IMG/VR virus record: IMGVR_UViG_3300032261_000561
Direction: 5' to 3' (one strand)
DNA from: a virus
Length of the DNA: 64,000 bases
Below, one piece after another: positions 21,751 to 61,203 of this stretch (within the stretch, counting starts at the first letter, position 1; each line of letters begins with the position of its first letter). The notes under the pieces were generated by a model. It was not told where the DNA came from. It ran no database searches and was given only the letters and a program-made list of their open reading frames with translations. Made by a program: the position numbers and the translations under genes.

Positions 21751-21791
21751 GTGTGTCTCCTTGGGTAGTTCTCGGGTGTGTCACCTTCTGG

Positions 21792-21817
21792 AACAATTTA
21801 CCAGCCAAGTATATTCC
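21792..21817 (-). promoter_or_regulatory. SigH/SigE-type promoter GGAAT-N18-GTT with internal operator-like palindrome
   Basis: GGAATATACTTGGCTGGTAAATTGTT. Confidence 0.6.
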
Positions 21818-22018
21818 GGTAAGTCACGCCGGATACGCCAGGAGAACAGGCTGGTCCATTCGATCCAGCTGTTGCTGCCCATAGCGAGCACGGGGCGATC
21901 AACCCAGCGCGAATCGCGTGGGCCCTCTGGCTTGCTGTGGATGCTCATTCGGTGTCCAGCACCTTCTCACCCACCCGGGGGACGGGGAACTGCCGCCCGC
22001 ACATGGTGCACTGCGCCT

Positions 22019-22543
22019 TCACAGCGGTGGTCCCATCAGCTCGCCGTAGTTGAAGTCCTGCCCCATCACATCCTGGATGGTGACCTGCGGGCCGTGGGCG
22101 CCGTGGAACTCCCCGCGCCAGATGTGGCAGTACTTGACCACGGTGGCGTCGGGACGACCTTTGACGAAAGGAATGGCACGCGGTGTGGGACGCCACCAGC
22201 CGTTGCGGTAGCTGCCGTCCTCGCGCATCCCGGGCATCGGCTCGATGAGATCCCAGGCGGGATAACGCAGCTTGGCGAAATCCCCGCCGCCGGTGCCCCG
22301 GTCTCTCAGCCGCGCCGCCAGCGGGGGGACCTCCACCCAGCTCTCGCCGTTGCGCTCGAAGTACCACACCACCGCCACCAGCAGGGTGCCCATCGCGCGG
22401 GTGATGGTGCGGTTGACGTACTCCTTGTCCAGCTTGGAGCAGGCCGGGCAGATCTTGCCCTCGGGGCAGGGATCGTTGAGCCACTCGGTGGCATCCGAGA
22501 GCGAATCGTTGTCGGGATCGAAGTGAAACGGACCGTGGGTCAT
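22019..22543 (-). CDS. hypothetical DNA-binding-like protein
   Basis: CPAC Zn knuckle; GGDFAKLRY..W.LIE...G.W..T pattern. Confidence 0.65.
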   Translation of the reverse strand: MTHGPFHFDPDNDSLSDATEWLNDPCPEGKICPACSKLDKEYVNRTITRAMGTLLVAVVWYFERNGESWVEVPPLAARLRDRGTGGGDFAKLRYPAWDLIEPMPGMREDGSYRNGWWRPTPRAIPFVKGRPDATVVKYCHIWRGEFHGAHGPQVTIQDVMGQDFNYGELMGPPL

Positions 22544-23046
22544 CAGACCACCGCCACGATCAGCCGGAACAGCGCCCACCCGTAGAACACCAGGGCCACC
22601 GGCACGATGGCCGCGAGCAAGACCAGCGTGGCGCGGTAGTCGGCGCGGGTGGTGTCGGTGAAGTTGTGCGGACCACCGTCGAAGCCGAACAGCCCGCGTT
22701 GCAGCTGGATGAGCAACTCATTCACTGGCTGTCCTCGTGATGCAGCTGGCAGCACTTCTTGGCCTCTTTCAGCGTGCGAACACCATAGCCCTCCCCGTCG
22801 GTGGGCCCGGGCCCGAAATCCAGGCAGGGACGCCAGGTGTCGTCCTGCGCCCAGCGCTCGGCGGGGAACCAGGGCCCGCCCCTGCTGTACTGCACGATGC
22901 GGTAGACGTAGCCTTCGCTGGCCGCCCAGTAGGTCTTCTCCGACGGGTTGCGCAGTCGCTCCGGCGGGATGCGCGTGAAGTGCAGCGGGGGCTCGTTGCG
23001 ATCGAACACGACCGGCCCGCCGTCATCGGCGCTCATATCAGCTCCA

Positions 23047-23478
23047 TCATTGGTCGTCGTCCTCCAACCCCCATCGGTTCTCGTTCTCGATCCCGCCGAC
23101 GTACTCGATCTCCCTGGCCTCCCACTGCTGGGCGCGTGCCTTGGCCGCGTCCAGGTCAGCGAAGTGGGCCTCGGCCAGCTCACACGAATCAACCACCTCG
23201 GTGCCCTCGTCCTCCTCGACCTCGTTGCCCTCCTCGTCGAGGTAGTGGCCGGTGGGCATGTACGCCGACAGCGCCAGCCTGCTGACGTGGACGCCGTGGA
23301 CGTCGGTGTAGTCCAAGATGGTGTAGGTGCGGGCGCCCTCGATCGGGAAGATCACCACCCGGCTGCCGCCCCGGGTGAACGCGTGGCGGATGACCAGATC
23401 GGGGAAGTGCTCCATCGGGCTGTTCTCGGGCTTCCCCCATTTCAGCTGTTCGATCATCACGCCACCACCTCGTCGCAC
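23047..23478 (-). CDS. hypothetical protein
   Basis: ORF track. Confidence 0.6.
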   Translation of the reverse strand: MRRGGGVMIEQLKWGKPENSPMEHFPDLVIRHAFTRGGSRVVIFPIEGARTYTILDYTDVHGVHVSRLALSAYMPTGHYLDEEGNEVEEDEGTEVVDSCELAEAHFADLDAAKARAQQWEAREIEYVGGIENENRWGLEDDDQ

Positions 23479-23766
23479 TCGTCATCCCATTCCTGCACGT
23501 GATAGCCGGTTACATACGAGCTGGGCTGGGCCTTTTCCATGGCGTGGGCGAAGACCGTCGCCGCCAGCCAGCGGACGTCGTGGGCGATCTCGGTGGCGGG
23601 CAGGGAGGGGGTGTCGGCATGGTGGCGGGCCCGGTAGACGTCTAGGTCGACGTCCACGCTATAGCTGATCTTGACCCTCATCACGCCACCCCTTTACGCA
23701 GCTCTTCGAGCGTGGGTGGTTTCAGTTTTACTGCCATGTTGTGTGTCTCCTTGTGTGTGTCTGCTG

Positions 23767-29400: not shown

Positions 29401-29577
29401 TTAAGTCTCGGCGTGCAACGCCACAATGATGCGACCCTTGCCGTCGGAGCCCTTCTCCACACTGACGTCGGCGGGCGTGTCCTCCCCCATCACCTGCCTA
29501 ACTTCTTCCCACCACGCGGTGGCCTCGTCCAATTTGCACGGGACTACGAGCTGCAAGGTGGTGTAAGTGTCGGCCAT
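29401..29577 (-). CDS. small hypothetical protein
   Basis: MADTYTTLQLVVP...; AAGGAG RBS. Confidence 0.6.
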   Translation of the reverse strand: MADTYTTLQLVVPCKLDEATAWWEEVRQVMGEDTPADVSVEKGSDGKGRIIVALHAET

Positions 29578-29593
29578 TTGGGACTCCTTGGGC

Positions 29594-29635
29594 ATTAAAG
29601 AGGCGTCCGAGGAGACACACAGTACTCGGACGCCT
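29594..29635 (-). ncRNA. candidate hairpin sRNA carrying an anti-GGAGACACAC loop
   Basis: Perfect 11-bp stem (29601-29611 / 29625-29635); minus-strand loop UACUGUGUGUCUC; TGtTACTGT extended -10 six nt upstream; CUUUAAU downstream. Confidence 0.5.
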
Positions 29636-29752
29636 AGGCCAACAGTAACAGCTGAAGATGTGCGGTGTGACGGCCCCAAAAACGACGTTATACTCTGTAG
29701 GTACATTAGAGCAAGATTGGAAGAGACACATAACCATGACCAAGGCCCCCTG

Positions 29753-30127
29753 ATGTCCATTGCCGACCTCATTCCCCCCGAATACCTCTGGTGCCGAGAC
29801 ATGAAGCACAGCTGGGATCCGGACAGCCTCGTCTCACGCGAACACTTCAACCGACGTGTCGAACGCTGGGAGATCTGGCGTAGTTTCCGCTGCCTGTTCT
29901 GCGGCGGGCACAAGACCCAGAAGCTGACCAAGGCCTACCAGCTGCTGGGCACCAGCTACGAGTACGCGCCCAACTACACCATCGACGGCGGTCCCGGCTA
30001 TCGACTCACGGCCGAGGATCGCGCCCAGATCAGGGCGCTGTCCACCGCGATACGCGGTGGGGTGGAGAAACCCAGCACCGAAGACCGCGCCGAAGCCCGC
30101 AAGACCACACCCAGGAAAAAGCCATGA
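29753..30127 (+). CDS. small Zn-binding hypothetical protein
   Basis: WCRDMKHSW...CLFCGG. Confidence 0.7.
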   Translation: MSIADLIPPEYLWCRDMKHSWDPDSLVSREHFNRRVERWEIWRSFRCLFCGGHKTQKLTKAYQLLGTSYEYAPNYTIDGGPGYRLTAEDRAQIRALSTAIRGGVEKPSTEDRAEARKTTPRKKP

Positions 30128-30549
30128 AGATCGAGATCAACCCCGCGACCGGACTCATCACCGCCGAGATCGAAGACAACAGCAGCGCGGCCTCCTTCGT
30201 GCGCGAGCTGCTGAGCGGCCACGCGGTCCCCGCGCCCAAGGCGATCGAATCCAAGCGGGTGGCCAAGCCTGCACCGAAGAAGCGTCGCCGCCGGAAACTG
30301 GCGCCGCCGCGCCCCGAGCGTCCGATCTCCAAGCCCCTCGATGAGACTTGGGCCTGGATGGCGGCTGCGGACCGGCCGGAGGGAATCACCGCCCGAGAAA
30401 TCGCGGGGGCGTTCGACCTCACCAACGCCGGTGCAACCTGGCGCATCAACAGGCTGATCGAGCGCGATATGGTGTGGTTGGTCAGCCGTGGACGCTACCG
30501 GGTGGGCTCGGCCCATGACGCCGAAGTCCTACTCAATGGCTCACGCTGA
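30124..30549 (+). CDS. winged-helix DNA-binding protein
   Basis: GITAREIAGAFDLTNAGATWRINRLIERDMVWLVSRGRY. Confidence 0.75.
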   Translation: MKIEINPATGLITAEIEDNSSAASFVRELLSGHAVPAPKAIESKRVAKPAPKKRRRRKLAPPRPERPISKPLDETWAWMAAADRPEGITAREIAGAFDLTNAGATWRINRLIERDMVWLVSRGRYRVGSAHDAEVLLNGSR

Positions 30550-31837: not shown

Positions 31838-32008
31838 GTGTGTCTCCTCGAAGCGTTGGGGGAAAGTTGGGCGAAGATTTCACTATAGTCCTCGGCCGGT
31901 AAATGGACACACCTTCAGCCGGGTCGACGCGGTGCTCGCAGGCCACAGCCAGCAACAGGAAGCGGCACGGCCGGTAATGCCAGCCGTCGGTGCGCCTGCA
32001 GTGACAAC

Positions 32009-49553: not shown

Positions 49554-49616
49554 GTGTGTCTCCTTTTCCTACAACTTTAGTCTAACGTAGGCCCAAGACA
49601 TGCCCAAAGGACCGAT

Positions 49617-49910
49617 CTATCTGCCGCCTTGGCGCTGTTTGACGATCTCGCGCTGGGCGATCTGCACCATCTCTTCGAGCACCGGCGCCAGCACGCCGGT
49701 CTGGATCATCTGGAACGCCAGCTTGATCTCCTCCTGGGTGGGGATGGGATCGACCCACACCCCGTTGCGCTCCCAGCCCTTCCAGCCGATGGACGCCTCG
49801 GTACCCGGCTTGAGCCATTGGTCGGTGGTGCCGTTGACCGTGAGGGTGGCATCCATACGCACAGTCAATTTGAAGGAGTCGATACGGGTGGGTGGCTCGG
49901 GGTCGCTCAC
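49617..49910 (-). CDS. hypothetical protein
   Basis: GTG start with GAGG RBS. Confidence 0.6.
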   Translation of the reverse strand: MSDPEPPTRIDSFKLTVRMDATLTVNGTTDQWLKPGTEASIGWKGWERNGVWVDPIPTQEEIKLAFQMIQTGVLAPVLEEMVQIAQREIVKQRQGGR

Positions 49911-50090
49911 AACCGGGCCTCTTCGTTGATCTGGACCTCGGCGGCGATCTGCTTCAGCTCGTAAGTCCACAGCCGGTCTTCAATCTCTTGGCGCCTGAAG
50001 TAGTCGGGGTCGTCGAACACCGGCCACCATTTGATCAGCAGCACCAGGTACACGGCCAGTGCGATCAGGATCGCGCTCACCGCCACGGTT

Positions 50091-50468
50091 TCAAGGACTT
50101 CCATTGTGTGTCTCCTCTGCTTGGCGCTGCAGCTCGTCGATCTTGAGCAGCGTCACGTCCTCCACCAGTCGGCGTTCGACCGGCGTAAGATCCTCCATCA
50201 TCTCCTGGCCGTAGACCCAGTGTTCGGCCAGCACCGCCAGCATCTGAGCCAGCAGATACGCCGGAAACCGGCCCTGCCGGGCCTCGACGAACTGCACCGA
50301 GCGCCGCAATGCCTCGCCGGGGGTGAGCAGCCTGCCGTGCAGAACCAGCTGCCCCTCGGCGCCCTCCACCCAGTCCTCCAAGAACGTCAGGAAAGCCACG
50401 CTGATCTCGCCGCCGCCAGCCAGCGCCGCCCGGCGCCCCTGCCAGCTGTCGGTGTCACGCGTCTTCAC
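50091..50468 (-). CDS. hypothetical protein
   Basis: ORF track. Confidence 0.65.
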   Translation of the reverse strand: MKTRDTDSWQGRRAALAGGGEISVAFLTFLEDWVEGAEGQLVLHGRLLTPGEALRRSVQFVEARQGRFPAYLLAQMLAVLAEHWVYGQEMMEDLTPVERRLVEDVTLLKIDELQRQAEETHNGSP

Positions 50469-50784
50469 GGCGGCAAGCCTCTAGGACGCGCTCGATGCCC
50501 GGGCGCGACGTCGGAATGGAGACGTGCGGGAAGTTTTTCTCCGGCATGTACGGCTTGGACGTCAGGTGATAGTGCTCGGCGTGCTCGCACTTGTACACCC
50601 GCTGCTCGCACCTCTGGCCCACCGCCCGCTGAATGCGTTTCAGCGCCTCTTTCGCATCGGCATGCGTCCGGTAGCCCAGCTTGCCGCCCGACGGCTCGCA
50701 GGGGCCTATGTCGAGGATTCTGGACATGCCGGAATGGCTGCGCCGGGACCGTTTGGAGCGCTGCTCCTTACCATGGCTGCTCAC
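50455..50784 (-). CDS. Zn-binding phage protein
   Basis: C..GK..Y.T..DA..AL...RVYKC.....YHLTS. Confidence 0.65.
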   Translation of the reverse strand: MSSHGKEQRSKRSRRSHSGMSRILDIGPCEPSGGKLGYRTHADAKEALKRIQRAVGQRCEQRVYKCEHAEHYHLTSKPYMPEKNFPHVSIPTSRPGIERVLEACRREDA

Positions 50785-51634
50785 GGCTCGACAACTTTCA
50801 GCTCGGACCAGTTGTGCACCGCCAGGGCGCCGGGGCGGTCGTCGAACTCCACCATGGCGAAGTGCACATTGCGCTCGGACAGCCCCTGCGGACCGGCGTT
50901 GCAGCGCATCGTCAGCGGCAGCGGGTCGGCGGTCAGTCCCAGCTTCACCGCGATCTCATAGTCGCTCTCCTGCGAATAACGAGCCTTGGCCTCCCGGCTG
51001 GGTTTCCAGACCGTGCCCACATGGATGCCCACCGAGCAGCCCATCGACAGGCACTTGTATTCGACTCTCACTTTGTTTCCTTCCCGAGCAGGCTCGTGAT
51101 CCGGCTGGCGCTCATATGAACTCCAACATCATCGGGTGGGTGGCTTTGGCGATGCGGTCGGCGCCATAGCGCACGTACACATAGGGATCGTTGACGTGGC
51201 TGATCACGCCGTACTCGGGCTGGTGGTCGGTGTCGTGGATCTGGAAGACCACCTGGGCACCGATGCGTTCCTCGGCTTCGTCGAGTCTCATGGCCATGGC
51301 CCCCATCATCACGCGAAGAGGAACGCCAAGACGACAAATAGGAACAAGCCCACCATGATGAAGGTGCCGAACACCGCGCATCCCAGCAGGTAGCCCCGAG
51401 TGAAGTTGGTGAAAATTTCCTCGGCCACACCTGGTTTGCGACGCGCCGGTGGCAGTGCTCGCGCCCGAGGCGCCGCGTAATAGTGCAGGTGCAGGATCTG
51501 GTCGTTCACGACGCCTCTCGCTTCACCGTCTGAGGCCCACCGCGCTCGTCGGTTACCTGCGTTTCGTGCATTGGTGTGTGTCTCCTGTCGTGTATATCTT
51601 CTAATTTACCTATAATACTGCTCTAATGCCAGGC

Positions 51635-51970
51635 CTACCCCGGCGCCGTATGCGTGATCGGAACCGGCCGCCATGGGACCTTGGTCCGATTTCCTGGTTG
51701 CATCAGCTTCATGATTTCGCCCAGCTCGTATTCGCGCATATCCAGCTGACGGCGCAGCTCGGCCAGCCGGGAAACCTTGGCATTGGTCTCGGTGGCCAAC
51801 CTCAAACGGCGCTGGGCTGCCTCCCGGGCCCGCAGTGCCGCCTCGTAACGGCGCTGCAGCCGATTGGTGGCGTAGTCCACCTCGATCTGATAACGCTCGC
51901 TGATCGGATCGCTATGCAGCTCGTAAGCCTGCGGCGGAACGCGATGACGACTCTTATGCTTCTTGGCCAC
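51635..51970 (-). CDS. hypothetical coiled-coil protein
   Basis: ORF track. Confidence 0.6.
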   Translation of the reverse strand: MAKKHKSRHRVPPQAYELHSDPISERYQIEVDYATNRLQRRYEAALRAREAAQRRLRLATETNAKVSRLAELRRQLDMREYELGEIMKLMQPGNRTKVPWRPVPITHTAPG

Positions 51971-52679
51971 GATCCTTAAGCCCTTCGATCAGTTTGTCGC
52001 GGACATCCTCAGGGGTCTCGTCGTTGCGGGAATCTTTGAAGGCCAGGACGGGTTCGAGGTCCCCGGTCTTGCGGGCGGCCTCGATGCGGTCGAAGTAGGC
52101 CCGCATGGCAAAAACCCGGCGCATCAGCGAGTTCTTCATGCGCCCTTTCTCTAACCGCCGGGTGGCCTCCCGAGAGGTCTGCGGGGGCAGCGGCATGCCG
52201 CCACGCAAATGAGAGGCACCTGATCCAGCCAGACGCCACCTGGTGCCTTCGCATCGGGCGAAGAACTCCTGGATCTGCTCCCACTCCTTGAAGAACAACG
52301 TGGCGATCTCCCAGTGCATCGAGAGCCAGTATTCGTGGGACTCGGAATCCCGTTCCATCTGCAGCGGCGCCGGGGTGCCGAACTTATTGCGGTGCATGAT
52401 CTCCCAGACCAGCACGGCATAACGCATCCGGTCGGCGTCATGTTGATAGGCCATCGACACCAGCTGATCGCGCAGGTGCTCCTTCTCCCGTTTGGATAGC
52501 CCAGTGGCGGCAGCCATCGCCTTGGAGTGGATCCCGGCCCGAACCTCGTTGATCTCCTTCTTCACCGCCGACAGCTGCTCGGTCAGCTCCTTGATCTTGG
52601 CGTGGGCCTGCTGCAGAGCCTCGGATTCGAGCACCTTGAGCCGGGAATCGGCACGCTGGGCGTATTTCCCCTTCGTCAC
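51954..52679 (-). CDS. hypothetical coiled-coil protein
   Basis: ORF track. Confidence 0.65.
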   Translation of the reverse strand: MTKGKYAQRADSRLKVLESEALQQAHAKIKELTEQLSAVKKEINEVRAGIHSKAMAAATGLSKREKEHLRDQLVSMAYQHDADRMRYAVLVWEIMHRNKFGTPAPLQMERDSESHEYWLSMHWEIATLFFKEWEQIQEFFARCEGTRWRLAGSGASHLRGGMPLPPQTSREATRRLEKGRMKNSLMRRVFAMRAYFDRIEAARKTGDLEPVLAFKDSRNDETPEDVRDKLIEGLKDRGQEA

Positions 52680-52788
52680 TATCCGGCCCCCTGCTCCATC
52701 TCGATCAACTCGCCATCCTGGGGAGGACCCCTTTTATGTCCTCTAATTTACACACAATGTTGATCTAATGATAGTGAGACGGTTCTTT

Positions 52789-54267
52789 TTACCAGCTCAG
52801 CACCATGCCGCCCTCGTCCTCCTCGGGCCCGGCGGTGTCCACCAGGTCGTCGATCCAGGACACCGCCGCGCAGTCCAGCACCTCCTTGGCTCGGGTGACC
52901 GCCACGTAGCCGATCATTGCCTCGGCCTCCGAGATGGTCGGCGTCTCGCCGTCCTCGGTGACGCGCGGGGCGAAGAAGTCCCCGGCCACCTTGACCGTCT
53001 CCCACTGCCGACCCTTGCTCTTGTGCGCGGTGGAGACGATCACGTCGGCGTCGTCCTCGTTGCGGGAGAGTGCGTTGGTGGCTTCCAGGATCCGCTCGAT
53101 GCCATGCTCCTCGATCAGCTTGATCAGCGGCAGCAGGTCGCGGCCCCCCTCCTCCTCGGTGGCGTAGCGCACCACCGAGTCCCAGTCGGGGAAGGCGTAC
53201 AGCTCGGGGTGGTTGGTGGTCTTGCCTTCCCGCAAGTCCCCCGCCGCCCGAGCCAGCCTGCTCAATGCGTCACCGCCGCCCACCAAGGACACCCGACGGC
53301 CCGAGTCCAGCTCGCCCAGCACGTGGCCCATGGCGCCCGCATTCGTGCGGCACAGGATCGCCTTGGGCTTCTCCAAGGTGTCCACCACCGAGTCCATGTG
53401 CGGGTTGCCGATCAGTTCCAGCGGGGTGTGCAGCTGGTGCAGCCATTTGTTGGCCTCGTCCGCGATCGCCTGCCCGAACCGCCAGGACTGCGCCAGATAG
53501 AGCTGACGGGCGTTCTTCCAGCCGCCCAGCGCATCGACCGCCCCGCGCCAGGCATACATCTGCTGGCACGAGTCCCCCACGATGATCTGCTGGGCGTTCT
53601 GATCGCTGATCAGCTTGGCCAGCACCGGGTTGGCGTCCTGCGCCTCATCGAAGTAGATGGTGTAGTAGGGCAGCTCCGGCCGGGTCAACGCCCACATCTT
53701 CAGATAGTGATCGTGCTCGAACGGCATCCAGCCGCTGCGGTCGTTGACGTCGGCCCACCAGCGCTGGGCCAGTGGCAGCACGTTGGCCACCAGGACGGCG
53801 TGGTCGGCCCCGATGATCCCGTTCTGCGGTGGGACGTGGCGGGCGGTGATCTCGTCGTCGGCGCTGTAGCAGAACCGGCGCACCGTGTCCCCGGCGATAC
53901 GCGCCAGGTGGCTGGACTTCACCATGACGTCGCGGCCTAATCGCAGGTTGCGCAGCCCCATCCGTTTGGCCACCTCCCAGCTCGGCTCGCGCTTGCCCGA
54001 GATCCGGTGCCGGAAGTCCTTGCCCACCGCCCCGTAGGCCAGCCCGTGGCTGGTCTTGCAGGTGACGTGCCCGGGGAACTTGCCCGAGGCATCCAGCTGG
54101 ATCGGCTTGTTGTAGGCCACGTACAGGCTGCGTTTCGGCAGCTGCTCGGCCACCATCACCAGGGTGGACGTCTTGCCCGTCCCGGCGCCCGCCTGCACGA
54201 CCAGGTTGTCCCCGCTCAGGGCCCCGTCGATGACCGCCTGCTGTTCGGCGGTCGGTGGGTATTCCAT
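52789..54267 (-). CDS. UvrD/Rep-like SF1 helicase
   Basis: AGAGTGKT, DEAQD, VGD..Q..Y.WRGA, SWRFG, STAHKSKG.QW, YVAVTRA. Confidence 0.95.
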   Translation of the reverse strand: MEYPPTAEQQAVIDGALSGDNLVVQAGAGTGKTSTLVMVAEQLPKRSLYVAYNKPIQLDASGKFPGHVTCKTSHGLAYGAVGKDFRHRISGKREPSWEVAKRMGLRNLRLGRDVMVKSSHLARIAGDTVRRFCYSADDEITARHVPPQNGIIGADHAVLVANVLPLAQRWWADVNDRSGWMPFEHDHYLKMWALTRPELPYYTIYFDEAQDANPVLAKLISDQNAQQIIVGDSCQQMYAWRGAVDALGGWKNARQLYLAQSWRFGQAIADEANKWLHQLHTPLELIGNPHMDSVVDTLEKPKAILCRTNAGAMGHVLGELDSGRRVSLVGGGDALSRLARAAGDLREGKTTNHPELYAFPDWDSVVRYATEEEGGRDLLPLIKLIEEHGIERILEATNALSRNEDDADVIVSTAHKSKGRQWETVKVAGDFFAPRVTEDGETPTISEAEAMIGYVAVTRAKEVLDCAAVSWIDDLVDTAGPEEDEGGMVLSW

Positions 54268-54295
54268 GTGTGTCTCCCTTCCTTACAATCTCATG

Positions 54296-54322
54296 AACGA
54301 GTTTACCCTACAGGTATATTCC
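54296..54322 (-). promoter_or_regulatory. SigH/SigE-type promoter GGAAT-N19-GTT with internal TTACC-N5-GGT palindrome
   Basis: GGAATATACCTGTAGGGTAAACTCGTT. Confidence 0.6.
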
Positions 54323-54325
54323 CTA

Positions 54326-54922
54326 TCACATCCACTCGGGGCGTATCCGACGCCACCGCTCCACTGTTCCCTGAGGCACCGACCGTTGATATCCCTGACG
54401 GTGCAACACAGACTTGGATATCCCGAACTCCACCACCACCTCGGCCAGCCTGATCAGTGGCTGGGGATGCAGATTCAGCTCGGGGCGCGGCGCCGGGGCG
54501 GGTTTGTCGCTAACGATGACTGGCTGCAGGGTGGGTGGCTCGGGCTTGGGTTGGCGACGACGCGCGGGACGCTGTCCTTTCGGCCTGGCCCGTCGGGGAG
54601 TCAGGTTGGCGCCGTAAAACCGCAGGAACGTCCTCGTCGCTCGGGTCAGCGTCCAACCCTCGTTCTCCTTGTGCAGCTTGTGCACGAGGTCGTGACAACG
54701 CTGACACAGCGGAACCAGATCGGAGTCCAACTCAGCTCCCATCCGCCGGTAGGTGTGGTGATGCAGGTGGATGTCGATGACGCTCCCGCACGCCTGGCAC
54801 TGCCTCTTGTGATTGGCATAGAAGGCTGCCTTCCTGCGCTCCCAGCTGGTCGAATTGATGTACTGGGCGTATTCGTCTTTGCTGCGCCTTCTACGGGGCT
54901 CTGAGCGGGTTTGCTGGGGAAT
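54326..54922 (-). CDS. HNH endonuclease with putative ATT start and C-terminal extension
   Basis: YAQYINS.SW.RRK...CQAC...HLHHHTY.R.GAE..DLVPLCQRCH...H; frame is open to a TAG just above an AGGAG-N7-ATT. Confidence 0.8.
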   Translation of the reverse strand: MPQQTRSEPRRRRSKDEYAQYINSTSWERRKAAFYANHKRQCQACGSVIDIHLHHHTYRRMGAELDSDLVPLCQRCHDLVHKLHKENEGWTLTRATRTFLRFYGANLTPRRARPKGQRPARRRQPKPEPPTLQPVIVSDKPAPAPRPELNLHPQPLIRLAEVVVEFGISKSVLHRQGYQRSVPQGTVERWRRIRPEWM

Positions 54923-54924
54923 TG

Positions 54925-55310
54925 GAGTTCTCCTGGGTCTTAGGGCCTACTTCGGGCCTTGCCTCGGTGACCCCCCAGGCGACTGACCCCCATTTGCCAT
55001 CTCCGGTACTGTCACACCACCTCTGGCCCCCTGTCTTGGAGTGACAGAGAGCTGATACGCATTGACCTGAGGCTTGCTCTGCAGCTGCGAGCTTCGGGTA
55101 CCCGGCCCGGCCCGGGATTTCCTCGTAGGAGACTCAGTACCGGGAGCCGTGTCAGGTACTCCGGATACGGAACGGGAAGGGAGAGCGGGTTTTTCGGCGG
55201 GTCTCCCCGTAAGCGCCGGTAGGAGGGGCAGTGGCAGCTGCAACAATTACCATCCGGTAACCGGGAGCGCAACCCCGTCCAACATGTTGGGTGAACTGGT
55301 TGCACTACCC
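54925..55310 (-). ncRNA. candidate large structured RNA upstream of the HNH gene
   Basis: No credible ORF; many helices (55298-310/55263-274, 55234-243/55079-088, 55135-143/55003-011, 55041-047/55009-015). Confidence 0.45.
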
Positions 55311-55334
55311 CCCAGATGTAGAGATACTCTCAGA

Positions 55335-55411
55335 TACGCACAGAGATGCGTGGAGACAGTGGCAACTTCTCCGAAGGGCCCCGGCACATGGGAGCCGGGG
55401 CTCTTTTCTTT
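55335..55411 (+). ncRNA. candidate ~77-nt counter-transcribed sRNA with three hairpins
   Basis: TTGCAC-N17-GATACT promoter (55300-55328); hairpins ACGCA/TGCGT and GGAGA/TCTCC, then an intrinsic terminator. Confidence 0.55.
55376..55411 (+). terminator. intrinsic terminator
   Basis: GGGCCCCGGC-N8-GCCGGGGCTC-TTTTCTTT. Confidence 0.8.
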
Positions 55412-55444
55412 CCACAAGTCGTCCAATTTTCCTACAATGAGCTG

Positions 55445-57370
55445 GTGACACACGCGACGGTTGAGTCGACCATCGAACTTTTGGCCAGCGACCCCGAGGT
55501 CGACCTGGACACCGTCGTGTTGGTCAGCGAGTCCACCGCCTACTCGGGCTGCCTGCGTTTCGAACCGTTCGACGGGGACCGGCAGGGCTTCTTCCAGCGC
55601 TACGGCTTGGAGGAGAACTGGATCAGCCGGTTCCTGGTGCTCAACGAGCACCACAACCTGCGCCATTTCATCCGCCAGCTGCTCGACGACAGCTGGCTGC
55701 TGGTGTATGACCCGTCGGCGGATCCGATCCTAGCCGACTTCGAGCGCTGGGCGGCGCCGCTGGACGTGCAGGGCTTCACCTGCCCGCACCACGGGCAGCT
55801 GCGGCCCTATCAGACCTTCGGGATTCAGCGGGCGCTGGAACGGAACGAGGCTCAGAAGGCCTCTGAGCGCCTCACGGTGCCCGGGTGGTGTGCCGGTGCC
55901 GGGAAGAGCCTGTTCGCCTGCGCAGGGGCTCAGGAGCTGGCCAACAGGGGCCTTGTGGACGTGGTGCTAGCTTTCACCCTGATGCGCCACAAAGACAACC
56001 TGCGGGCGTTCTTCGCCGACACCACCGAGCTGAAAGCCGTTGTGGTGGACGGGACTAAAGACCGGCGCCGCAAGCTCTACGCCAGCGAGCACGACGTGTT
56101 CGTGGTCAACTACGACAAACCGCGCTTCGACTTCGAGGAACTGTCCGAGCTGACCGCCGGAAAGCGTGTGCTGTTCGTGCTCGACGAGGTGCAGAAGGTG
56201 CTTACCGCCGAGACCAAGACCCAGGCCCGCAAGGCGCTCGATCAGCTGATCAAGGGCTGCCGGGCCACCATCTGGCCGATGACTGCCTCCATTGTGGGCT
56301 CCAATCCGCTACGCTACCGCTCGCTGTTCGCCTTGAGTCAAGCTCGGGACAACCCGCTGGGCAGCCGGGCGGACTTCGAGGAGCGCTACCTGGAACGCGA
56401 CAACTGGGGCAACCCGAAGAAGCGCACCTACCAGCGCACCACCCGCCACGGCGGGTCGTTCACCGTCACCGACTACGACTGGGATTTGGCCGCGTTGCAT
56501 GAGGTGCGCCACCGGGTGGCCGACCGGGTGCAGAACGCGCGTAAAGGCGATCCCGGTGTGCGCGAATACTTCCCGCCGCTGCAAGTGGAGTTCATCCCGA
56601 TCCAGATGAGTCCCGAGGACCGCCAGCTGATCGACGAGATCGAGTACCTGGCCCGCATCGCCAAGCGTGAGGGGGAGTCGTTGACGTCCTACGCGCTGCT
56701 GCAGCGGTACGTGTGCAACACGCCGGAAGCGTTGGCGCACTCCATCTCACCGCTGGCGCGGGTGCTGATGGAGGAATACCCCCGGCTGATCACCAGCGCC
56801 AACTCCGCGAAGATGGAGTACTTCCTCGACCAGGTGGAATCGATTGCCGACGCCGGAGATAAATGCGTCGCTTTCACCAAATGGACCAATTTGGGCTTGC
56901 ATATTTTGAGTCGTGAGCTGGACAAGCGCAAGGTGAAGCATGTGGTGCACTACGGCACCGGCCAGACCGCCAAGGAGTCCCAGCGGGCCCAGGACTGTTT
57001 CAAGGCCGATGCCGAGATCACGTTGTTCCTGTCCAGCGACGCCGGGGCGTATGGCCTCAACATGCAGGAGGCCAAGTACTGCATCCAGTACGAATGCCCG
57101 TACAGCTACGACGATTTCCAGCAGCGGATCAACCGGATCCACCGCACCGACTCCCAGCTGGCCGGGCTGACCGCGTACATCTATGTGACCGAGAACTCGA
57201 TCGAGGAGCGCATCGCCGGGATCTGCGAGTATCGGCGCCAGCTGGCCGAGGCCACGCTGGGCACGAGTGAAGTCGTCTCGTTACCTGAGATCGCCACCCG
57301 AGACGAGATATCGAACGCTGATTATTTACTTTTCGGAGATGACCGTGATTTTTGGAAACGAGTGACATGA
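55445..57370 (+). CDS. SNF2-like SF2 helicase, leaderless
   Basis: LRPYQ, GAGKS, VNYD, LDEVQ, SAK, AG.YGLNMQ.A, QRINRIHR; TACAAT -10 six nt before GTG. Confidence 0.9.
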   Translation: MTHATVESTIELLASDPEVDLDTVVLVSESTAYSGCLRFEPFDGDRQGFFQRYGLEENWISRFLVLNEHHNLRHFIRQLLDDSWLLVYDPSADPILADFERWAAPLDVQGFTCPHHGQLRPYQTFGIQRALERNEAQKASERLTVPGWCAGAGKSLFACAGAQELANRGLVDVVLAFTLMRHKDNLRAFFADTTELKAVVVDGTKDRRRKLYASEHDVFVVNYDKPRFDFEELSELTAGKRVLFVLDEVQKVLTAETKTQARKALDQLIKGCRATIWPMTASIVGSNPLRYRSLFALSQARDNPLGSRADFEERYLERDNWGNPKKRTYQRTTRHGGSFTVTDYDWDLAALHEVRHRVADRVQNARKGDPGVREYFPPLQVEFIPIQMSPEDRQLIDEIEYLARIAKREGESLTSYALLQRYVCNTPEALAHSISPLARVLMEEYPRLITSANSAKMEYFLDQVESIADAGDKCVAFTKWTNLGLHILSRELDKRKVKHVVHYGTGQTAKESQRAQDCFKADAEITLFLSSDAGAYGLNMQEAKYCIQYECPYSYDDFQQRINRIHRTDSQLAGLTAYIYVTENSIEERIAGICEYRRQLAEATLGTSEVVSLPEIATRDEISNADYLLFGDDRDFWKRVT

Positions 57371-57795
57371 CTGTTCTCCCCTTCCCCGGCCCCAGTGACG
57401 GCGCCCGACACAGTGATCCACCCACCAGTTGGAAGGCAGCAGCCATCAACCAAAGCCGCCGCAATGAACTGCGGTTCAATATGCTCTACACGCATGGGAT
57501 CCTGCTCAGGGACCGACCCAACTGGTACGTGGGACAACAAGGATTAACCGCCGACGAAATCGCCCGCGTGATGAACCTTCCCGTCCCCGCTAACGGCGGG
57601 ACGTCCAAAATGTGCCATTGGAAGCGCCACTCCGAGCTGTACCGCGTCTTCGGTTATTTGGACGTCACCCTCATCGGCAACCAGGAGTTGGAGCGCGAGG
57701 GCCAGCATGTGCTGATAATCAACCAGCGTGGCCTGCGGCACATCGACGACATGCTGAGAAGATATCCGAACATGACCGAGCGGAAATTTGACTGA
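57367..57795 (+). CDS. winged-helix phage protein
   Basis: ARHSDP.TS..AA, GLTADEI, WKR.SEL. Confidence 0.7.
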   Translation: MTVLPFPGPSDGARHSDPPTSWKAAAINQSRRNELRFNMLYTHGILLRDRPNWYVGQQGLTADEIARVMNLPVPANGGTSKMCHWKRHSELYRVFGYLDVTLIGNQELEREGQHVLIINQRGLRHIDDMLRRYPNMTERKFD

Positions 57796-58493
57796 TGAGC
57801 GAGTTCGTCTTCAGCTCCAACCAGGTCACCAACTCCGAGCAGTACTACTTCCCGGCCAGCCTGGAAGCGTTGGAGATGACTCCCAACTTGAAGCGGTGCT
57901 CGCTGACCAACGCCATGCGCTTCGGCGGGCCGCTGGTGCGGCTGATCCTGGAAACCGCGCCGCTGGAAGGCGACGGCGAGGACATCTACGTCGAGACGGT
58001 GGTCAACTACCTGCACGTGGGCCAGTGCCCCACCCAGCCGGGCTGGCATCTCGACGACATCCCCCGGCTCACCCCCGAAGAGCCCACCCAGCTGCCCGGC
58101 ATGACCCCCGATGCCATGGACTACCCGTCGCTGACCGAGATGGTCAAGCAGACCCAGGCCGGGCGCCACGTGCGCCACCACACCATCGTGGTGGGCAACC
58201 CGTGCCCCACCGTGTTCGCCAACGAGCCGGTGACCCTGGACATCGAGCACCCCGACGACTGGGGGGTGATGCGCGACATCCACGCCAAGGCCAGCGCGGC
58301 GAGCTTCGAGGCGATCGCGTTCCCCAACGGCATGTGGACGACGTGGGACTGGTGGAACCTGCACCGGCCGTGCCAAGCCAGCCAGTCGGGGTGGCGACTG
58401 CTGCTGCGCATCGGGGAGGGCGGGGACCGGCCGGTCGAGCACGATTTCTTCAAGCCGATCCACCACGTCTACGTCCCGTCCACCGCGATTTGA
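57795..58493 (+). CDS. putative 2OG-Fe(II) oxygenase-like protein
   Basis: PGWHLD (HxD), distal LHR, then GWRLLLR (2OG-binding Arg). Confidence 0.65.
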   Translation: MSEFVFSSNQVTNSEQYYFPASLEALEMTPNLKRCSLTNAMRFGGPLVRLILETAPLEGDGEDIYVETVVNYLHVGQCPTQPGWHLDDIPRLTPEEPTQLPGMTPDAMDYPSLTEMVKQTQAGRHVRHHTIVVGNPCPTVFANEPVTLDIEHPDDWGVMRDIHAKASAASFEAIAFPNGMWTTWDWWNLHRPCQASQSGWRLLLRIGEGGDRPVEHDFFKPIHHVYVPSTAI

Positions 58494-58508
58494 TGGGAGG
58501 ATCGGCCC

Positions 58509-58847
58509 ATGGCTGAGATCTCAACCAAAGAGCTGTACCGCTACCGCAGCCATCGCACCCTGCAGGAGCTGCACGACTACAAGAAGCTACGGGTGCGAAT
58601 CCGCACCGAAGGGGTGCGCACGCCGGTGGAGCTGCACACCGACGGCCGGTTCGTCTTCATGGCCGAAGGCCACAAGCGGGTAATGATCGCCATCGAACTG
58701 GGTATTAAGACGCTGCCGGTGACCGTCACCGAGCGTGAATTCTCCCGGTCCCGCCGAATGAAATATCGGATCGGACCCGAGCTGGCCGAGCTGCTCAAAG
58801 AAAAGACCGCCGCGACCGTGGGGTCCGACGACGGGGATAACCTATAA
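58509..58847 (+). CDS. ParB/Srx-like domain protein
   Basis: I..EG...PV......EGHKR...A.ELG...LPV. Confidence 0.75.
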   Translation: MAEISTKELYRYRSHRTLQELHDYKKLRVRIRTEGVRTPVELHTDGRFVFMAEGHKRVMIAIELGIKTLPVTVTEREFSRSRRMKYRIGPELAELLKEKTAATVGSDDGDNL

Positions 58848-59375
58848 GCCTTGCGGGCCTACAACAGGCGGCGGGGTGTAGTACGCCGGGCCCATGCCCA
58901 GGATCCTGGGATTGGCGTTGAGCACCGCCGGATAGTGCTGATGGGCCCGCCACCCCCTGAACCCGGCGTAGCGACCCAGGTGCAGATCCAAGTGGCGCCA
59001 GGGATCGTCCATCTCGCGCTGGCCGTAGACCACGCGCATCAGCTTCCAGACATCGGGCGCGGCCGCGATGAACTCGGCGCGGAACCGCGCGAGCCCCAGC
59101 GGGGTGGCGCCGGTGCCGACGAAGTCGATGCCCTGCTGGTAGCCGAAGAAGCACCAGGGGTGCGGACAATCCAGCAGCGTCTCGATGGCGCCGGGCCAGG
59201 GCACGGTGTCATGCTCCATGGTGATGAAATCCTCGCCGCGCTCCCACGCCGCCGCCATGTAGTCCAGGTAGGCCCATTTGCCGCCTGAGACGTCCACCAG
59301 CGTGACGGGGACCGGGCAGTAGAACGAGGACGCCAGGAAGACCCGGGTGGCCTCTGAGAGCCGCGTGAAGGGCAC
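58842..59375 (-). CDS. small GT-A-fold glycosyltransferase-like protein
   Basis: AW..GEDFI.MEHD..PWPGA...L..CP.PWC, LG..RF, W..LD. Confidence 0.65.
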   Translation of the reverse strand: MPFTRLSEATRVFLASSFYCPVPVTLVDVSGGKWAYLDYMAAAWERGEDFITMEHDTVPWPGAIETLLDCPHPWCFFGYQQGIDFVGTGATPLGLARFRAEFIAAAPDVWKLMRVVYGQREMDDPWRHLDLHLGRYAGFRGWRAHQHYPAVLNANPRILGMGPAYYTPPPVVGPQGL

Positions 59376-59770
59376 GTAGAGCCTCAGTGGGCCTCCCGGC
59401 GCCAGGCGTTGCGGTTCCCCTTGCGCGGGTGCTTGTCAGGGCGCCCGTTGGGGATCCGCGTGGAGCGCGGCCGGATCTCAACCCACCGGCGCACGCGCTC
59501 CTTGTGGGCTTGTTCGGCCGCTGTCAGAGTGGGCATTCCGACCACCTCCTTCCACTTCTAGTTTACCAATCAGGTAGTTATATCTTTGCGACCGGCTTCC
59601 AGCTCGTCGGCCGTGCAAGTGGTGTCCCAGCACAGCACCTTGCAGTCCTCGTTGCCGCAGAACGCCTGTCGACCTTCGTCGAGGAGGAGGACGGGCGGCT
59701 GGTCACAGTAGGGACAATTGGGAGTGGGAACGCTCATCGCTCGGCCCTCCGCGCTACCCACATGCGCTCC

Positions 59771-60166
59771 TCAGACATCAGTTGGCGCCATCTGCTCGGG
59801 GCTGACCTCGACGTACTTCCATCGCTCGTTGATGTCGTCGTACCTCGGCTCCACGACGGTGCCGACGTCCAGCTCCTCGACCGCCTCGACGGTGCTCTGG
59901 ATGGCGTTCCAGACGATGGGCCCGCCCCAGCCGGTCTCCTTGCCTGCTTTGGCTGCCAGCTGGAACAGATCATCCCAGCTCACCTCGCGCTCAACCACCT
60001 TGGCCGTGGTCGTTGCCCGGTAGGTGGTGGTGCCTGAGATCGAGCGGTCGCAGCCGCAGCCGCCTGCGTTGCAGCAGACGGCGCCGAAGCTGGCCACGAT
60101 CTCGCCCTCGGGCACGTAGCAGAACTCGCCGTAGGGCACTTCCCCCGTGCTCACCAGTACTTTCAT
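59771..60166 (-). CDS. conserved actinobacterial Cys-containing protein
   Basis: MKVLVST...EGE.V....C...CGC.RS..G.....ATTTA.V; GGAGACACAC RBS. Confidence 0.7.
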   Translation of the reverse strand: MKVLVSTGEVPYGEFCYVPEGEIVASFGAVCCNAGGCGCDRSISGTTTYRATTTAKVVEREVSWDDLFQLAAKAGKETGWGGPIVWNAIQSTVEAVEELDVGTVVEPRYDDINERWKYVEVSPEQMAPTDV

Positions 60167-60570
60167 GTGTGTCTCCTCATTTCTTCTCTTCCTTGCGCTC
60201 GATGCGCAACCAGGCGCTGTAGCCGAACCAGACCAGGGCTCCCAAATGGCTGGGCTCGACGAACCGGACGGCGATGTCGCCGTCGCTGTCGCACCGGGCC
60301 GATTCGACGACCCCGAAACCGAGAATCTCATCCCCCGGCCTGAGGTTGCGGGCCTCGACTCCGATCATGCGTGTGTCTCCTTCCGGTAACGGGATCGATC
60401 CGACCAGTCGACGTCGACCCCGAGCTTGTGCAGGAAGTCGGCCAGCTCGGGACCGAGATCCTGGATGTGATACGCATCCCCGCCGCCGTTGTAGACGACG
60501 TGGGCCTCCCCGAAGTACTTCCAGAGGAAGTCTTCGATCGCGCAGATGTCGACCTGGGGGTGATCAGGCA

Positions 60571-60921
60571 TCAGAACCTCGCCTCCCGTTCGTGGCCCTC
60601 GACCTGGATGCCCCGGTAGTAGTACACCGAACCCAGGCCCATGCTGTCCGAACTGGGAGGGCCCAGCTCGGCCATGGCCTCCTTGACCTCATCCAGACCG
60701 ACTTCGTCGTTCTCGTTCAGGCCCAGCAGCTGGGGTGCCAGCACCTCGGCCAGGGCCATCTGGAAGTCGGCGGGGCCGACCCCTCTGTCTACCGAGTAGC
60801 TCAGGCAGCTGGCGCCATACATGCCACGACCCGAATACTCGGGGCTAAGACGCTCGTCGAGGTCGATCAGCAGCATGCTGATCTTTTGGAACTGCGCCTC
60901 GCTTAGCAAGATCTTTGCCAT
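60571..60921 (-). CDS. conserved phage protein
   Basis: YSGRGMYG..C...DSMGLG.V.Y; GGAGACACAC RBS. Confidence 0.75.
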   Translation of the reverse strand: MAKILLSEAQFQKISMLLIDLDERLSPEYSGRGMYGASCLSYSVDRGVGPADFQMALAEVLAPQLLGLNENDEVGLDEVKEAMAELGPPSSDSMGLGSVYYYRGIQVEGHEREARF

Positions 60922-60954
60922 GTGTGTGTGTCTCCTTCCACTTCGTTGAACAGT

Positions 60955-61203
60955 TTACTCGTCAGGTGCATTCCGGCCGCGTATCTCGGCGCTGACACTC
61001 AGGGCCTGGACCAACGCCATGATCAGATCCCTGGTGGCCTGACCGTCCAGCTCGATCTCGGCGTACTCCTTGCCGATCTCGCTGGGTGCCTCGTCGACAG
61101 ACATCTGGATCTGGCCGTTTCCCATGGTCTTGACCACCACCGACTTACCGCCGAAGCGGACCTCGCTGACTTTGGACGCGATGAGACCTGAGTGAAATGG
61201 CAT
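60955..61203 (-). CDS. hypothetical protein
   Basis: ORF track. Confidence 0.6.
   Translation of the reverse strand: MPFHSGLIASKVSEVRFGGKSVVVKTMGNGQIQMSVDEAPSEIGKEYAEIELDGQATRDLIMALVQALSVSAEIRGRNAPDE

What the first reader, a model, noticed from the sequence alone, without database searches (positions are those of the whole stretch)
29594..29650. Hairpin whose loop is the exact antisense of a phage-wide start-site motif: candidate anti-RBS sRNA regulon
Seen: a perfect 11-bp stem (AGGCGTCCGAG / CTCGGACGCCT) in a divergent intergenic region. On the minus strand the loop and 3' stem read UACUGUGUGUCUCCUCGG, complementary to the GGAGACACAC found at 11 start codons. It pairs over 14 nt with the DUF932 leader (CGAGGAGACACACA) and 13 nt with the leaders at 50106 and 60167. 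An extended -10 (TGtTACTGT, 29642-29650) would start transcription at the hairpin base, and CUUUAAU follows the stem. This is the only plus-strand GGAGACACAC I noticed, and it has no start codon after it. Inference: a ~40-nt RNA (or 5' leader) that silences a set of phage genes by loop-RBS pairing, analogous in logic to P1 C4 / P4 CI antisense RNAs. Alternatively, the plus-strand hairpin is a decoy for a protein that binds the motif.
Basis: partly seen in the sequence, partly recalled or inferred. Interest (0 to 1): 0.88.

Follow-up and report, generated by a model that had tools for sequence, protein, structure and literature searches.

The report
Phage hairpin mirroring its start motif
An uncultured soil actinobacterial phage has a conserved RNA hairpin, probably at the very start of one transcript, whose open loop is the exact complement of the private ribosome-binding tag before about a dozen of its genes; it probably damps their translation, and a similar layout in well-studied Cluster K mycobacteriophages makes the idea testable.

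Summary
A perfect 11-bp hairpin with a 13-nt loop lies at 29601-29635, between a leftward 58-aa gene and a rightward two-gene cassette. Its loop holds the only opposite-strand copy of GGAGACACAC in the 125.7-kb contig. The other 12 copies, 11 of them in the window, lie 0-5 nt before an ATG.

New evidence:
- The TGnTAnnnT box upstream belongs to a promoter class that is strongly enriched between genes. Its spacing puts +1 on the first base of the stem.
- A sister lineage (~85% identical) keeps the loop 13/13 and the next 17 nt. It changes one stem pair C-G to G-C, and changes the box only at its N positions.
- Cluster K1 mycobacteriophages carry a "single reverse SAS" that has been noted but, in the papers read here, not explained. 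It sits in the top loop of a conserved folded leader, in the gap where late transcription is reported to start.

Best reading (~0.4): a 5'-leader hairpin that pairs with the start-motif regulon. A discrete 40-nt sRNA is not shown. No RNA data exist. Loop/motif co-variation cannot be tested, because both lineages share the motif. Some Cluster K phages keep the SAS but have lost the matching loop.

The scan has noted similar loop/RBS matches on other phage DNA. This looks like a new variant of a known kind.

The parts
29642..29650 (-). Extended -10 promoter box (TGnTAnnnT) for the leftward transcript
   Evidence: Seventeen such boxes lie on the coding strand of the contig and 13 of them are intergenic (p 4e-10). 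In lineage B only the N positions changed.
29635..29635 (-). Predicted transcription start (A), the first base of the stem
   Evidence: Inferred. The box is followed by a 6-nt spacer, as in two boxes of this genome that abut ATG codons as for leaderless genes (minus-strand boxes ending at window 7984 and 3263).
29601..29635 (-). Hairpin: 5' arm 29635-29625, 13-nt loop 29624-29612, 3' arm 29611-29601
   Evidence: Lineage B has one compensatory C-G to G-C pair (29628/29608) and an unchanged loop.
29611..29620 (+). Only opposite-strand copy of the start motif. On the minus-strand RNA it reads as the motif's complement: 9 nt in the loop plus the first stem base.
29584..29600 (-). Invariant 17-nt tail after the hairpin, ending in the GGAG SD of the 58-aa gene (29587-29584)
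   Evidence: 0 of 17 positions differ between lineages A and B, whereas the intergenic DNA outside the 52-nt hairpin-plus-tail block differs at 15%.
29401..29577 (-). 58-aa gene, first gene of the leftward operon (then 146 aa, 47 aa, a papain-like peptidase, a methyltransferase and a glycosyltransferase)
   Evidence: Homologues are found only in lineages A, B and one further variant.
29702..29707 (+). -10 box (TACATT) of the rightward promoter, within a 29-nt block identical in both lineages
   Evidence: It resembles the GGTAAAYT boxes upstream of other motif genes.
29719..29731 (+). Degenerate start motif of the rightward cassette. It is the exact motif in lineage B.
   Evidence: The duplex with the loop is -15.3 kcal/mol in lineage A.
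29736..29753 (+). Five-codon mini-ORF whose stop overlaps the ATG of the 124-aa gene (TGATG)
   Evidence: It is kept in lineage B with one synonymous change.
29753..30549 (+). Rightward cassette: a 124-aa Cys/His protein (phrog_4480) and a 141-aa winged-helix protein
31838..31847 (-). Start motif of the 334-aa gene (candidate target). In lineage B it ends in GC instead of AC, which still pairs with the loop through a G-U pair.
49554..61960 (-). Eight more exact start motifs, starting at 49554, 50106, 51576, 54268, 60167, 60371, 60926 and 61951 (candidate targets)
21751..23750 (-). Two exact start motifs (21751-21760 and 23741-23750), downstream on the same strand as the hairpin

Best explanation
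The hairpin is the extreme 5' end of the leftward transcript. That transcript is started by a host-type extended -10 promoter and encodes the 58-aa gene and the genes after it. The 13-nt loop of the hairpin displays the complement of the phage's start-associated motif (the SD core GGAG plus an ACACAC spacer). I propose that this loop base-pairs in trans with the ribosome-binding sites of the roughly 13-17 motif genes and lowers their translation. The nearest such target is the divergently transcribed Cys/His plus winged-helix cassette. The same stem-loop, starting at +1, would also shield its own mRNA's 5' end. The active form could be the mRNA leader or a short RNA released by partial termination after the stem (the tail begins CUUUAAU); this is open.

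Shown: the hairpin, the motif, the complementarity, the conservation and the compensatory change. Inferred: the promoter use, the +1 position, the pairing in vivo and its effect.
For: - The complement of a 10-mer that marks 12 gene starts occurs once in 125.7 kb, and that one copy lies in a 13-nt hairpin loop.
- TGnTAnnnT is a genuine promoter class here: 13 of 17 coding-strand copies are intergenic, p 4e-10. Two copies abut ATG codons with the same 6-nt spacer that here puts +1 on the first stem base.
- Lineage B is ~85% identical over 12 kb. It keeps the loop 13/13 and the 17-nt tail, has one compensatory stem pair, and changes the box only at N positions. That is 2 changes in 52 nt against 19 in the other 123 nt (P 0.009).
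- Eleven starts form duplexes of -18.7 kcal/mol or stronger with the loop. The median over 191 starts is -9.4, and shuffled loops give on average 2.4 starts at or below -16.
- In lineage A the neighbouring RBS has drifted, yet the loop still matches the genome-wide consensus. In lineage B one target changed A to G opposite a loop U.
- Independent analogue: the lone reverse SAS of Cluster K1 phages (PMC3203893) is the top loop of a conserved three-hairpin element with covarying stems. In Adephagia this element lies in the gene 92-93 gap, where late transcription is reported to start (PMC11373665).
- Actinobacterial sRNAs can act through loops without a chaperone, as 6C does (PMC6486639, title and abstract).
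Against: - There is no transcript evidence of any kind.
- Only two sequence lineages are available and both use the same motif, so loop/motif co-variation is untested.
- One compensatory pair is a small sample and does not say which strand folds.
- The promoter is of the same host type as those of several target genes, so no temporal logic follows from it.
- One leader RNA would have to titrate more than a dozen mRNAs.
- In Cluster K, phages with the same SAS carry a drifted loop (DarthP, Cain, Unicorn), an unrelated loop (Marshawn, Keshu, SirPhilip), or have lost the hairpin's 5' half and loop (Oscar). The match is therefore not indispensable there.
- GGAGACACAC also turns up before starts in unrelated GC-rich viral contigs, so part of the motif may simply be a good RBS.
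Confidence: 0.4

Rival explanations
1. The hairpin is only a 5'-terminal stabiliser or structural leader. A stem starting at +1 protects the operon mRNA from 5'-end-dependent decay, and the loop's match to the motif has no function in trans, for example because it is inherited from a copied RBS.
For: The predicted +1 is at the first stem base. The stem is conserved through a compensatory change. The SD of the 58-aa gene follows 13 nt later, so the element is part of an mRNA. That 5' stem-loops stabilise mRNAs (ompA, phage SP82) is general knowledge and was not checked here.
Against: A stabiliser needs no particular loop sequence. Yet the loop is an exact 10-mer complement of the motif and is invariant between lineages that differ at 15% in the intergenic DNA outside the 52-nt hairpin-plus-tail block. 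None of the other extended -10 promoter sites whose downstream sequence was read has such a hairpin.
Confidence: 0.2
2. The two arms form a DNA operator. The winged-helix protein of the divergent cassette binds the 11-bp inverted repeat at +1 to +35 and blocks the leftward promoter.
For: The element is a perfect palindrome in a divergent promoter region next to a wHTH gene (HTH_24, E 8e-4, below Pfam's cutoff). The wing of that protein differs between lineages (RY versus HH).
Against: The symmetric C-G to G-C change fits base pairing better than independent drift of half-sites. No other intergenic copy of the arm exists with one mismatch or fewer. The half-site centres are 24 bp apart, which I judge unusual for a wHTH dimer (my own knowledge). 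This reading does not explain why the spacer is the start motif or why the spacer is invariant.
Confidence: 0.12
3. The element is a cis-acting attenuator with the logic reversed. The hairpin plus its CUUU tail stops most leftward transcripts. Pairing of abundant motif-bearing mRNAs, or of ribosome-free RBSs, with the loop changes termination or leader folding and so sets expression of the leftward operon.
For: The hairpin is followed by CTTT, as is another intergenic hairpin about 20 nt after a stop codon (105766-105798). The 17-nt tail is invariant.
Against: Only three U follow the stem. Loop pairing need not open an 11-bp GC-rich stem. There are no data.
Confidence: 0.1
4. The plus-strand copy is a relic, left by a former gene start or by the inversion of the two-gene cassette, with no present function.
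For: In more distant relatives the cassette is collinear with its neighbours, so it was inverted in this lineage. The mini-ORF looks like a remnant of a lost upstream gene.
Against: The hairpin and tail are conserved: 2 changes in 52 nt against 15% nearby, and the 2 changes are compensatory. There is no flanking similarity to any other motif site beyond 14 nt.
Confidence: 0.08
5. The plus-strand RNA hairpin displays the sense motif as a decoy for a protein or for the 30S subunit.
For: The plus strand folds slightly better than the minus strand (-25.3 kcal/mol).
Against: My reading found no TAnnnT box on the plus strand upstream of the hairpin. The rightward promoter lies downstream of it, at 29702-29707.
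Confidence: 0.05

Closest known systems
Start-associated sequences (SAS) of Cluster K mycobacteriophages, including their single reverse-oriented copy (Pope et al. 2011, PMC3203893; Freeman et al. 2024, PMC11373665)
   Same: Both are short asymmetric motifs that contain the SD core. They sit a few nt before ATG starts of non-structural genes and run in one orientation, apart from one lone reverse copy that is not at a gene start. In Anaya that reverse copy is the 10-nt top loop of a hairpin on the transcribed strand, inside a conserved non-coding element behind a -10-like box. In Adephagia the element lies in the gap where late transcription is reported to begin.
   Different: The motif sequence differs (GGGATAGGAGCCC) and the phages are unrelated. 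The Cluster K element has three hairpins and its anti-SAS loop lies about 90 nt from the putative start, not at +1. Several Cluster K phages keep the SAS but not the matching loop. The papers read here give no role to the reverse copy and do not mention a hairpin.
c4 antisense RNA of phages P1 and P7 (Rfam RF01695) and the CI RNA of P4
   Same: In logic they are alike: a small phage RNA whose exposed loops pair with a ribosome-binding region and silence it (general knowledge, not tested here).
   Different: There is no sequence or structure homology (cmscan). C4 is processed from the same operon as its target and has a single target region. Here the complement is separately encoded and matches a dozen dispersed starts.
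6C/B11 sRNA of Mycobacterium and other high-GC Gram-positives (PMC6486639)
   Same: Its loops pair with several mRNA targets in the host phylum without an RNA chaperone (title and abstract).
   Different: 6C is a host gene with two C-rich loops, and no 6C match was found here. The present loop is GU-rich plus CUCC and is matched to a phage-private motif.
5'-terminal stem-loop mRNA stabilisers (E. coli ompA leader, Bacillus phage SP82 stabiliser; general knowledge)
   Same: A stable hairpin with no unpaired 5' overhang at the predicted +1, ahead of an SD.
   Different: Such stabilisers have no need for a loop complementary to other genes' RBSs.

Membership tests
Start-associated sequence (SAS)-type motif (the targets) | A short asymmetric repeat within a few nt upstream of start codons, mostly ATG | tested here: met
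   All 12 coding-strand copies lie 0-5 nt before an ATG.
Start-associated sequence (SAS)-type motif (the targets) | Contains the SD core, but conservation extends beyond what pairs with 16S rRNA | tested here: met
   GGAG is followed by an invariant ACACAC. That ACACAC has no complement in the 16S 3' end is my own knowledge of the actinobacterial 16S tail; the host is unknown.
Start-associated sequence (SAS)-type motif (the targets) | Restricted to non-structural genes, one orientation, with a rare lone reverse copy | tested here: met
   There is none before any start called in window 63.3-117.7 kb, the block of large genes I take to be structural (their functions were not verified here). There is one reverse copy, at 29611.
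Extended -10 SigA-type promoter | A TGn-TAnnnT box, co-oriented with and upstream of a gene | tested here: met
   The box is at 29650-29642. The class is enriched between genes (13 of 17, p 4e-10). The specified bases are kept in lineage B.
Extended -10 SigA-type promoter | Transcription actually starts 6-7 nt downstream | not testable with these tools
   No RNA run was listed.
P1/P7 C4 antisense RNA (Rfam RF01695) | Match to the family's covariance model | tested here: not met
   cmscan of 29300-31000 at E up to 1 gave no C4 hit.
Intrinsic terminator (needed for a discrete ~40-nt sRNA) | A GC-rich stem followed directly by a U tract | tested here: inconclusive
   The stem is strong, but the tail CTTTAAT has only three consecutive T. 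The scan tool flagged only a smaller inner stem. One other putative terminator in this phage has a similar CTTT tail.
Trans-acting anti-RBS RNA (functional class) | The complementary segment is exposed in a loop or single strand | tested here: met
   Nine of the 10 complementary nt are in the 13-nt loop of the minimum-free-energy and centroid folds.
Trans-acting anti-RBS RNA (functional class) | Regulator and targets co-vary between relatives | tested here: inconclusive
   Lineages A and B share both the motif and the loop. Cluster K shows both matched and unmatched loops with the same SAS.
Palindromic operator of a wHTH regulator | The half-site recurs at other regulated promoters, or half-sites drift independently | tested here: not met
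   No further intergenic copy exists with one mismatch or fewer. The only arm change is symmetric and complementary.

The most novel reading that the evidence does not exclude
Single reverse copies of a phage's private start-associated motif, displayed in a hairpin loop at the head of a transcript, are a recurrent and independently evolved device. Through it one leader RNA would control translation of the whole SAS regulon. This would supply the phage-encoded RNA partner that Pope et al. (2011) left open for Cluster K SAS, and it would apply to this phage as well.
Probability: 0.3. Interest if true: 0.85.

Novelty: new variant of a known kind. Interest (0 to 1): 0.64.

Why it matters
Start-associated sequences have been catalogued in actinobacteriophages since 2011, and the three papers read here (2011, 2024, 2025) still call their role unknown or unverified. 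The original paper asked whether a host or phage product, RNA or protein, binds them. This case gives a concrete candidate: an RNA loop encoded once per genome, complementary to the motif, conserved with a compensatory stem change, and placed at a predicted transcript start.

The same arrangement explains the unexplained lone reverse SAS of Cluster K1 phages such as Adephagia and Anaya. Those phages are culturable, can be engineered, and already have RNA-seq data, so the hypothesis is open to bench testing. If it holds, it would add a regulon-wide translational control by a leader RNA to phage biology in a host group that, as I recall, lacks Hfq.

Tried and rejected
- RNA evidence: the look-up of sequencing runs, kind rna, listed no RNA holder.
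- Close DNA relatives in the phage collection: none by megablast. The distant search gave only short hits to Phrappuccino, Finch and Stormageddon-type phages.
- The search for related loci in viral contigs with the 124-aa and 146-aa proteins found nothing.
- Exact scans of viral contigs for the hairpin core and for the loop 14-mer gave only chance hits, none with a stem.
- The metagenome scan with the 58-aa alignment returned only two lineage-B loci.
- DNA could not be fetched for a third variant of the 58-aa protein (P0016), for P0019, for the 134-kb relative carrying P0006, or for P0012. These are the sequences that might have allowed a co-variation test.
- Rfam gave no family for the hairpin region or for the Cluster K element.
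- The AlphaFold model of the 124-aa neighbour was too poor (pLDDT 61.5) to search with, so no fold search was run.
- The more distant relatives L011 and L012 carry neither the motif nor the hairpin.
- The scan for the motif plus ATG in viral contigs gave mostly single chance hits and a few GC-rich fragments with two copies. These were too short to test.
- The convergent gap 30550-30832 shows no significant structure (z +1.3), so there is no clear terminator shielding the cassette.
- Rejected: a plus-strand ORF starting after the motif, because there is no ATG, GTG or TTG before 29658.
- Rejected: the motif as a SigA -10 box for leaderless transcripts, because it has no TAnnnT and its spacing to the ATG varies.

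Full report
**What is there.** The window is bases 8002-72001 of a 125.7-kb IMG/VR viral contig (63.6% GC, CheckV completeness 84%). Its only DNA-level kin in the phage collection are short, ~64-72% identical hits to large actinobacteriophages (Phrappuccino, Finch, Stormageddon), plus ~70-nt hits at ~84% to Asterius/Yucca-type Mycobacterium phages.

At 29601-29635 lies a perfect 11-bp inverted repeat around a 13-nt spacer. As RNA it folds at -23.7 kcal/mol on the minus strand (z -3.2) and -25.3 on the plus strand (z -4.6). Only three perfect hairpins with stems of 10 bp or more lie between genes in the whole contig.

GGAGACACAC occurs 12 times in the window, against 0.13 expected, and 13 times in the contig. 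Every copy on the coding (minus) strand lies 0-5 nt before an ATG. The single plus-strand copy is 29611-29620: the last stem base plus the first nine loop bases. Only the coordinates need narrowing.

**Setting.** By codon-position GC and my own crude gene calls, 176 of 190 genes are on the minus strand. The hairpin lies in a 175-bp gap.
- To the left is a 58-aa gene (29577-29401). It is followed by a 146-aa gene (phrog_2779), a papain-like peptidase, a methyltransferase and a glycosyltransferase.
- To the right is a small plus-strand cassette. It holds a 124-aa protein with invariant Cys/His residues (phrog_4480) and a 141-aa protein with a winged-helix C-terminus (HTH_24, E 8e-4, below Pfam's cutoff).
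- In more distant relatives the same gene pair runs in the same direction as its neighbours. It was therefore inverted in this lineage.

**The motif.** It consists of the SD core GGAG plus an invariant ACACAC spacer. With one mismatch or fewer it precedes about 15 genes, all in the non-structural part of the contig and none before any start called in window 63.3-117.7 kb.
- Some copies follow promoter-like boxes of the GGTAAAYT type. Others lie inside operons and overlap the end of the upstream gene, which argues for a role in translation rather than transcription.
- It meets the descriptive criteria of the start-associated sequences (SAS) of Cluster K mycobacteriophages (PMC3203893).
- The same 10-mer also precedes starts in a few unrelated GC-rich viral fragments. 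Part of it may simply be a good RBS.

**Which strand, and where would the RNA begin?** The box TGTTACTGT lies at 29650-29642 on the minus strand.
- TGnTAnnnT occurs only 17 times on the coding strand of the contig. Thirteen of these are intergenic, although only 10.7% of the contig is (p 4e-10). The other strand has eight, two of them intergenic.
- Two boxes abut ATG codons, as for leaderless genes, with a 6-nt spacer between the box and the A of ATG. The same spacer here puts +1 at 29635, the first base of the stem.
- I found no TAnnnT box on the plus strand upstream of the hairpin. The rightward promoter (TACATT, 29702-29707) lies beyond it.
- The hairpin is therefore most simply the 5' end of the leftward RNA. 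These steps are inferred, because no RNA run was listed.

**Relatives.**
- The 124-aa and 58-aa proteins led to a sister lineage, B (loci L010, L013-L024, L071, L072). It is ~85% identical in DNA over 12 kb and has the same divergent layout. All B loci are identical in the gap.
- Between lineages A and B the 175-nt gap has 21 differences.
- The 52 nt made of the hairpin plus the next 17 nt (ending in the SD of the 58-aa gene) have only two. These two are the two sides of one stem pair, C-G changed to G-C. The other 123 nt have 19 differences (15%). P(two or fewer in 52) is 0.009.
- The loop is 13/13 identical.
- Within the box itself, only the N positions of TAnnnT changed.
- This supports a selected, base-paired element behind a selected promoter. 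The evidence is thin: one comparison and one compensatory pair, and a C-G to G-C swap does not tell the strands apart.

**Targets.**
- I scored duplexes between the loop and 191 translation starts. Eleven gave -18.7 to -19.7 kcal/mol. The median was -9.4. Shuffled loops gave on average 2.4 starts at or below -16, against 15 observed. This quantifies the complementarity but adds no independent evidence.
- In lineage B the RBS of the divergent cassette is the exact motif. The leftward leader there is the perfect complement of its neighbour's RBS.
- In lineage A that RBS has drifted (duplex -15.3), yet the loop still matches the genome-wide consensus.
- In lineage B the RBS of the 334-aa gene changed A to G opposite a loop U, which keeps a G-U pair on the minus-strand RNA.

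[quoted passage not shown] They left open whether an RNA or a protein binds SAS. I looked at that copy.
- In Anaya it lies at 59870-59882 in the gp96-gp97 gap. On the transcribed strand it forms the 10-nt top loop of a hairpin.
- The surrounding ~180 nt are found in 177 Cluster K records.
- An alignment of 14 of them gives three hairpins. Fourteen of 35 pairs are kept through changes on both sides, and many G-U pairs are specific to the rightward strand. An invariant TAGACT box lies upstream.
- In Adephagia the element (58572-58754) lies in the gene 92-93 gap (58447-58878). Freeman et al. report that late transcription initiates between genes 92 and 93 (PMC11373665).
- Neither that paper nor a 2025 survey of 188 Cluster K genomes mentions a hairpin or an antisense copy. 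Rfam has no family for it.
- Caveat: DarthP, Cain and Unicorn have C/U-rich loops that no longer match the SAS. Marshawn, Keshu and SirPhilip have unrelated loops, and Oscar has lost the hairpin's 5' half and loop. The SAS was confirmed as unchanged in DarthP, Unicorn, Marshawn, Keshu and SirPhilip. The match is thus frequent but not obligatory there.

**Mechanism and rivals.** My best reading (about 0.4) is a 5'-leader hairpin that pairs through its loop with the motif RBSs and lowers their translation, while also capping its own mRNA.
- A free ~40-nt RNA is possible only by partial termination. The tail has three U. One other intergenic hairpin, about 20 nt after a stop codon, has a similar CTTT tail.
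- Rivals, with my odds:
  - a pure 5' stabiliser (0.2). This does not explain the loop.
  - an operator for the neighbouring winged-helix protein (0.12). Against it are the symmetric complementary change, the lack of other copies and the 24-bp spacing of the half-sites.
  - an attenuator read in the reverse direction (0.1).
  - a relic of the inversion (0.08). Conservation argues against this.
  - a plus-strand decoy (0.05). There is no promoter for it.

**Comparison with known systems.** The element works like the anti-RBS RNAs of P1/P7 (c4) and P4 (CI) in logic, but it is not a member of those families (no Rfam match). It also differs from them in being encoded apart from its targets and in matching a dispersed regulon. 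Loop-mediated, chaperone-independent pairing has precedent in the host phylum (6C sRNA, PMC6486639). The targets qualify as an SAS-type motif.

Earlier notes of this scan report similar loop/RBS matches in other uncultured phages. I did not test those notes and do not count them as support.

I rate this a new variant of a known kind. Its main value is that it turns the old question of what SAS are for into an experiment that can be done in Adephagia or Anaya.

Noticed in passing
window 29736-29755: A five-codon mini-ORF (M-T-K-A-P-stop) sits behind the cassette's start motif. Its TGA overlaps the ATG of the 124-aa gene (TGATG). Lineage B keeps it with one synonymous change (ACC to ACT). It may be the stump of a lost upstream gene that still provides translational coupling.
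   Followed up: partly
window 29753-30549; loci L011, L012 and the contigs of P0006 and P0012: The 124-aa plus wHTH gene pair is inverted relative to its neighbours in this lineage and in lineage B. It is collinear with them in four more distant relatives.
   Followed up: partly
L074:10760-10940 (Anaya 59760-59940); L075 (Adephagia 58572-58754): A conserved three-hairpin non-coding element lies behind an invariant TAGACT box in 177 Cluster K records. It has covarying stems, and in K1 phages its top loop is the complement of the SAS. It is not in Rfam and is not mentioned in the three Cluster K papers read. It lies in the gap where Adephagia late transcription is reported to start.
   Followed up: partly
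window 7976-7984 and 3255-3263 (minus strand): Two TGnTAnnnT boxes are followed after 6 nt by an ATG, with no room for an SD. These are likely leaderless genes, as is common in actinobacteria.
   Followed up: no
window 105766-105798 (contig 113767-113799; L089): A perfect 10-bp hairpin lies about 20 nt after the stop of a 304-aa gene. It is followed by CTTTCC on the coding strand and TTTT on the other strand. It may be a terminator with a short U tract.
   Followed up: partly
window 23741-23773 (minus strand): The start motif at 23741-23750 is preceded by a partial second copy (GCAGACACACACAA), giving a long AC-rich leader. My gene caller missed this gene and the one at 51585.
   Followed up: no
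L012:300-330 and 1770-1800: A distant relative has a different repeated leader (GGTCGGCCGAGAAAGGG...) before two gene starts. This may be a private start motif of its own.
   Followed up: no
It matched only phrog_1362 (unknown function).
   Followed up: partly
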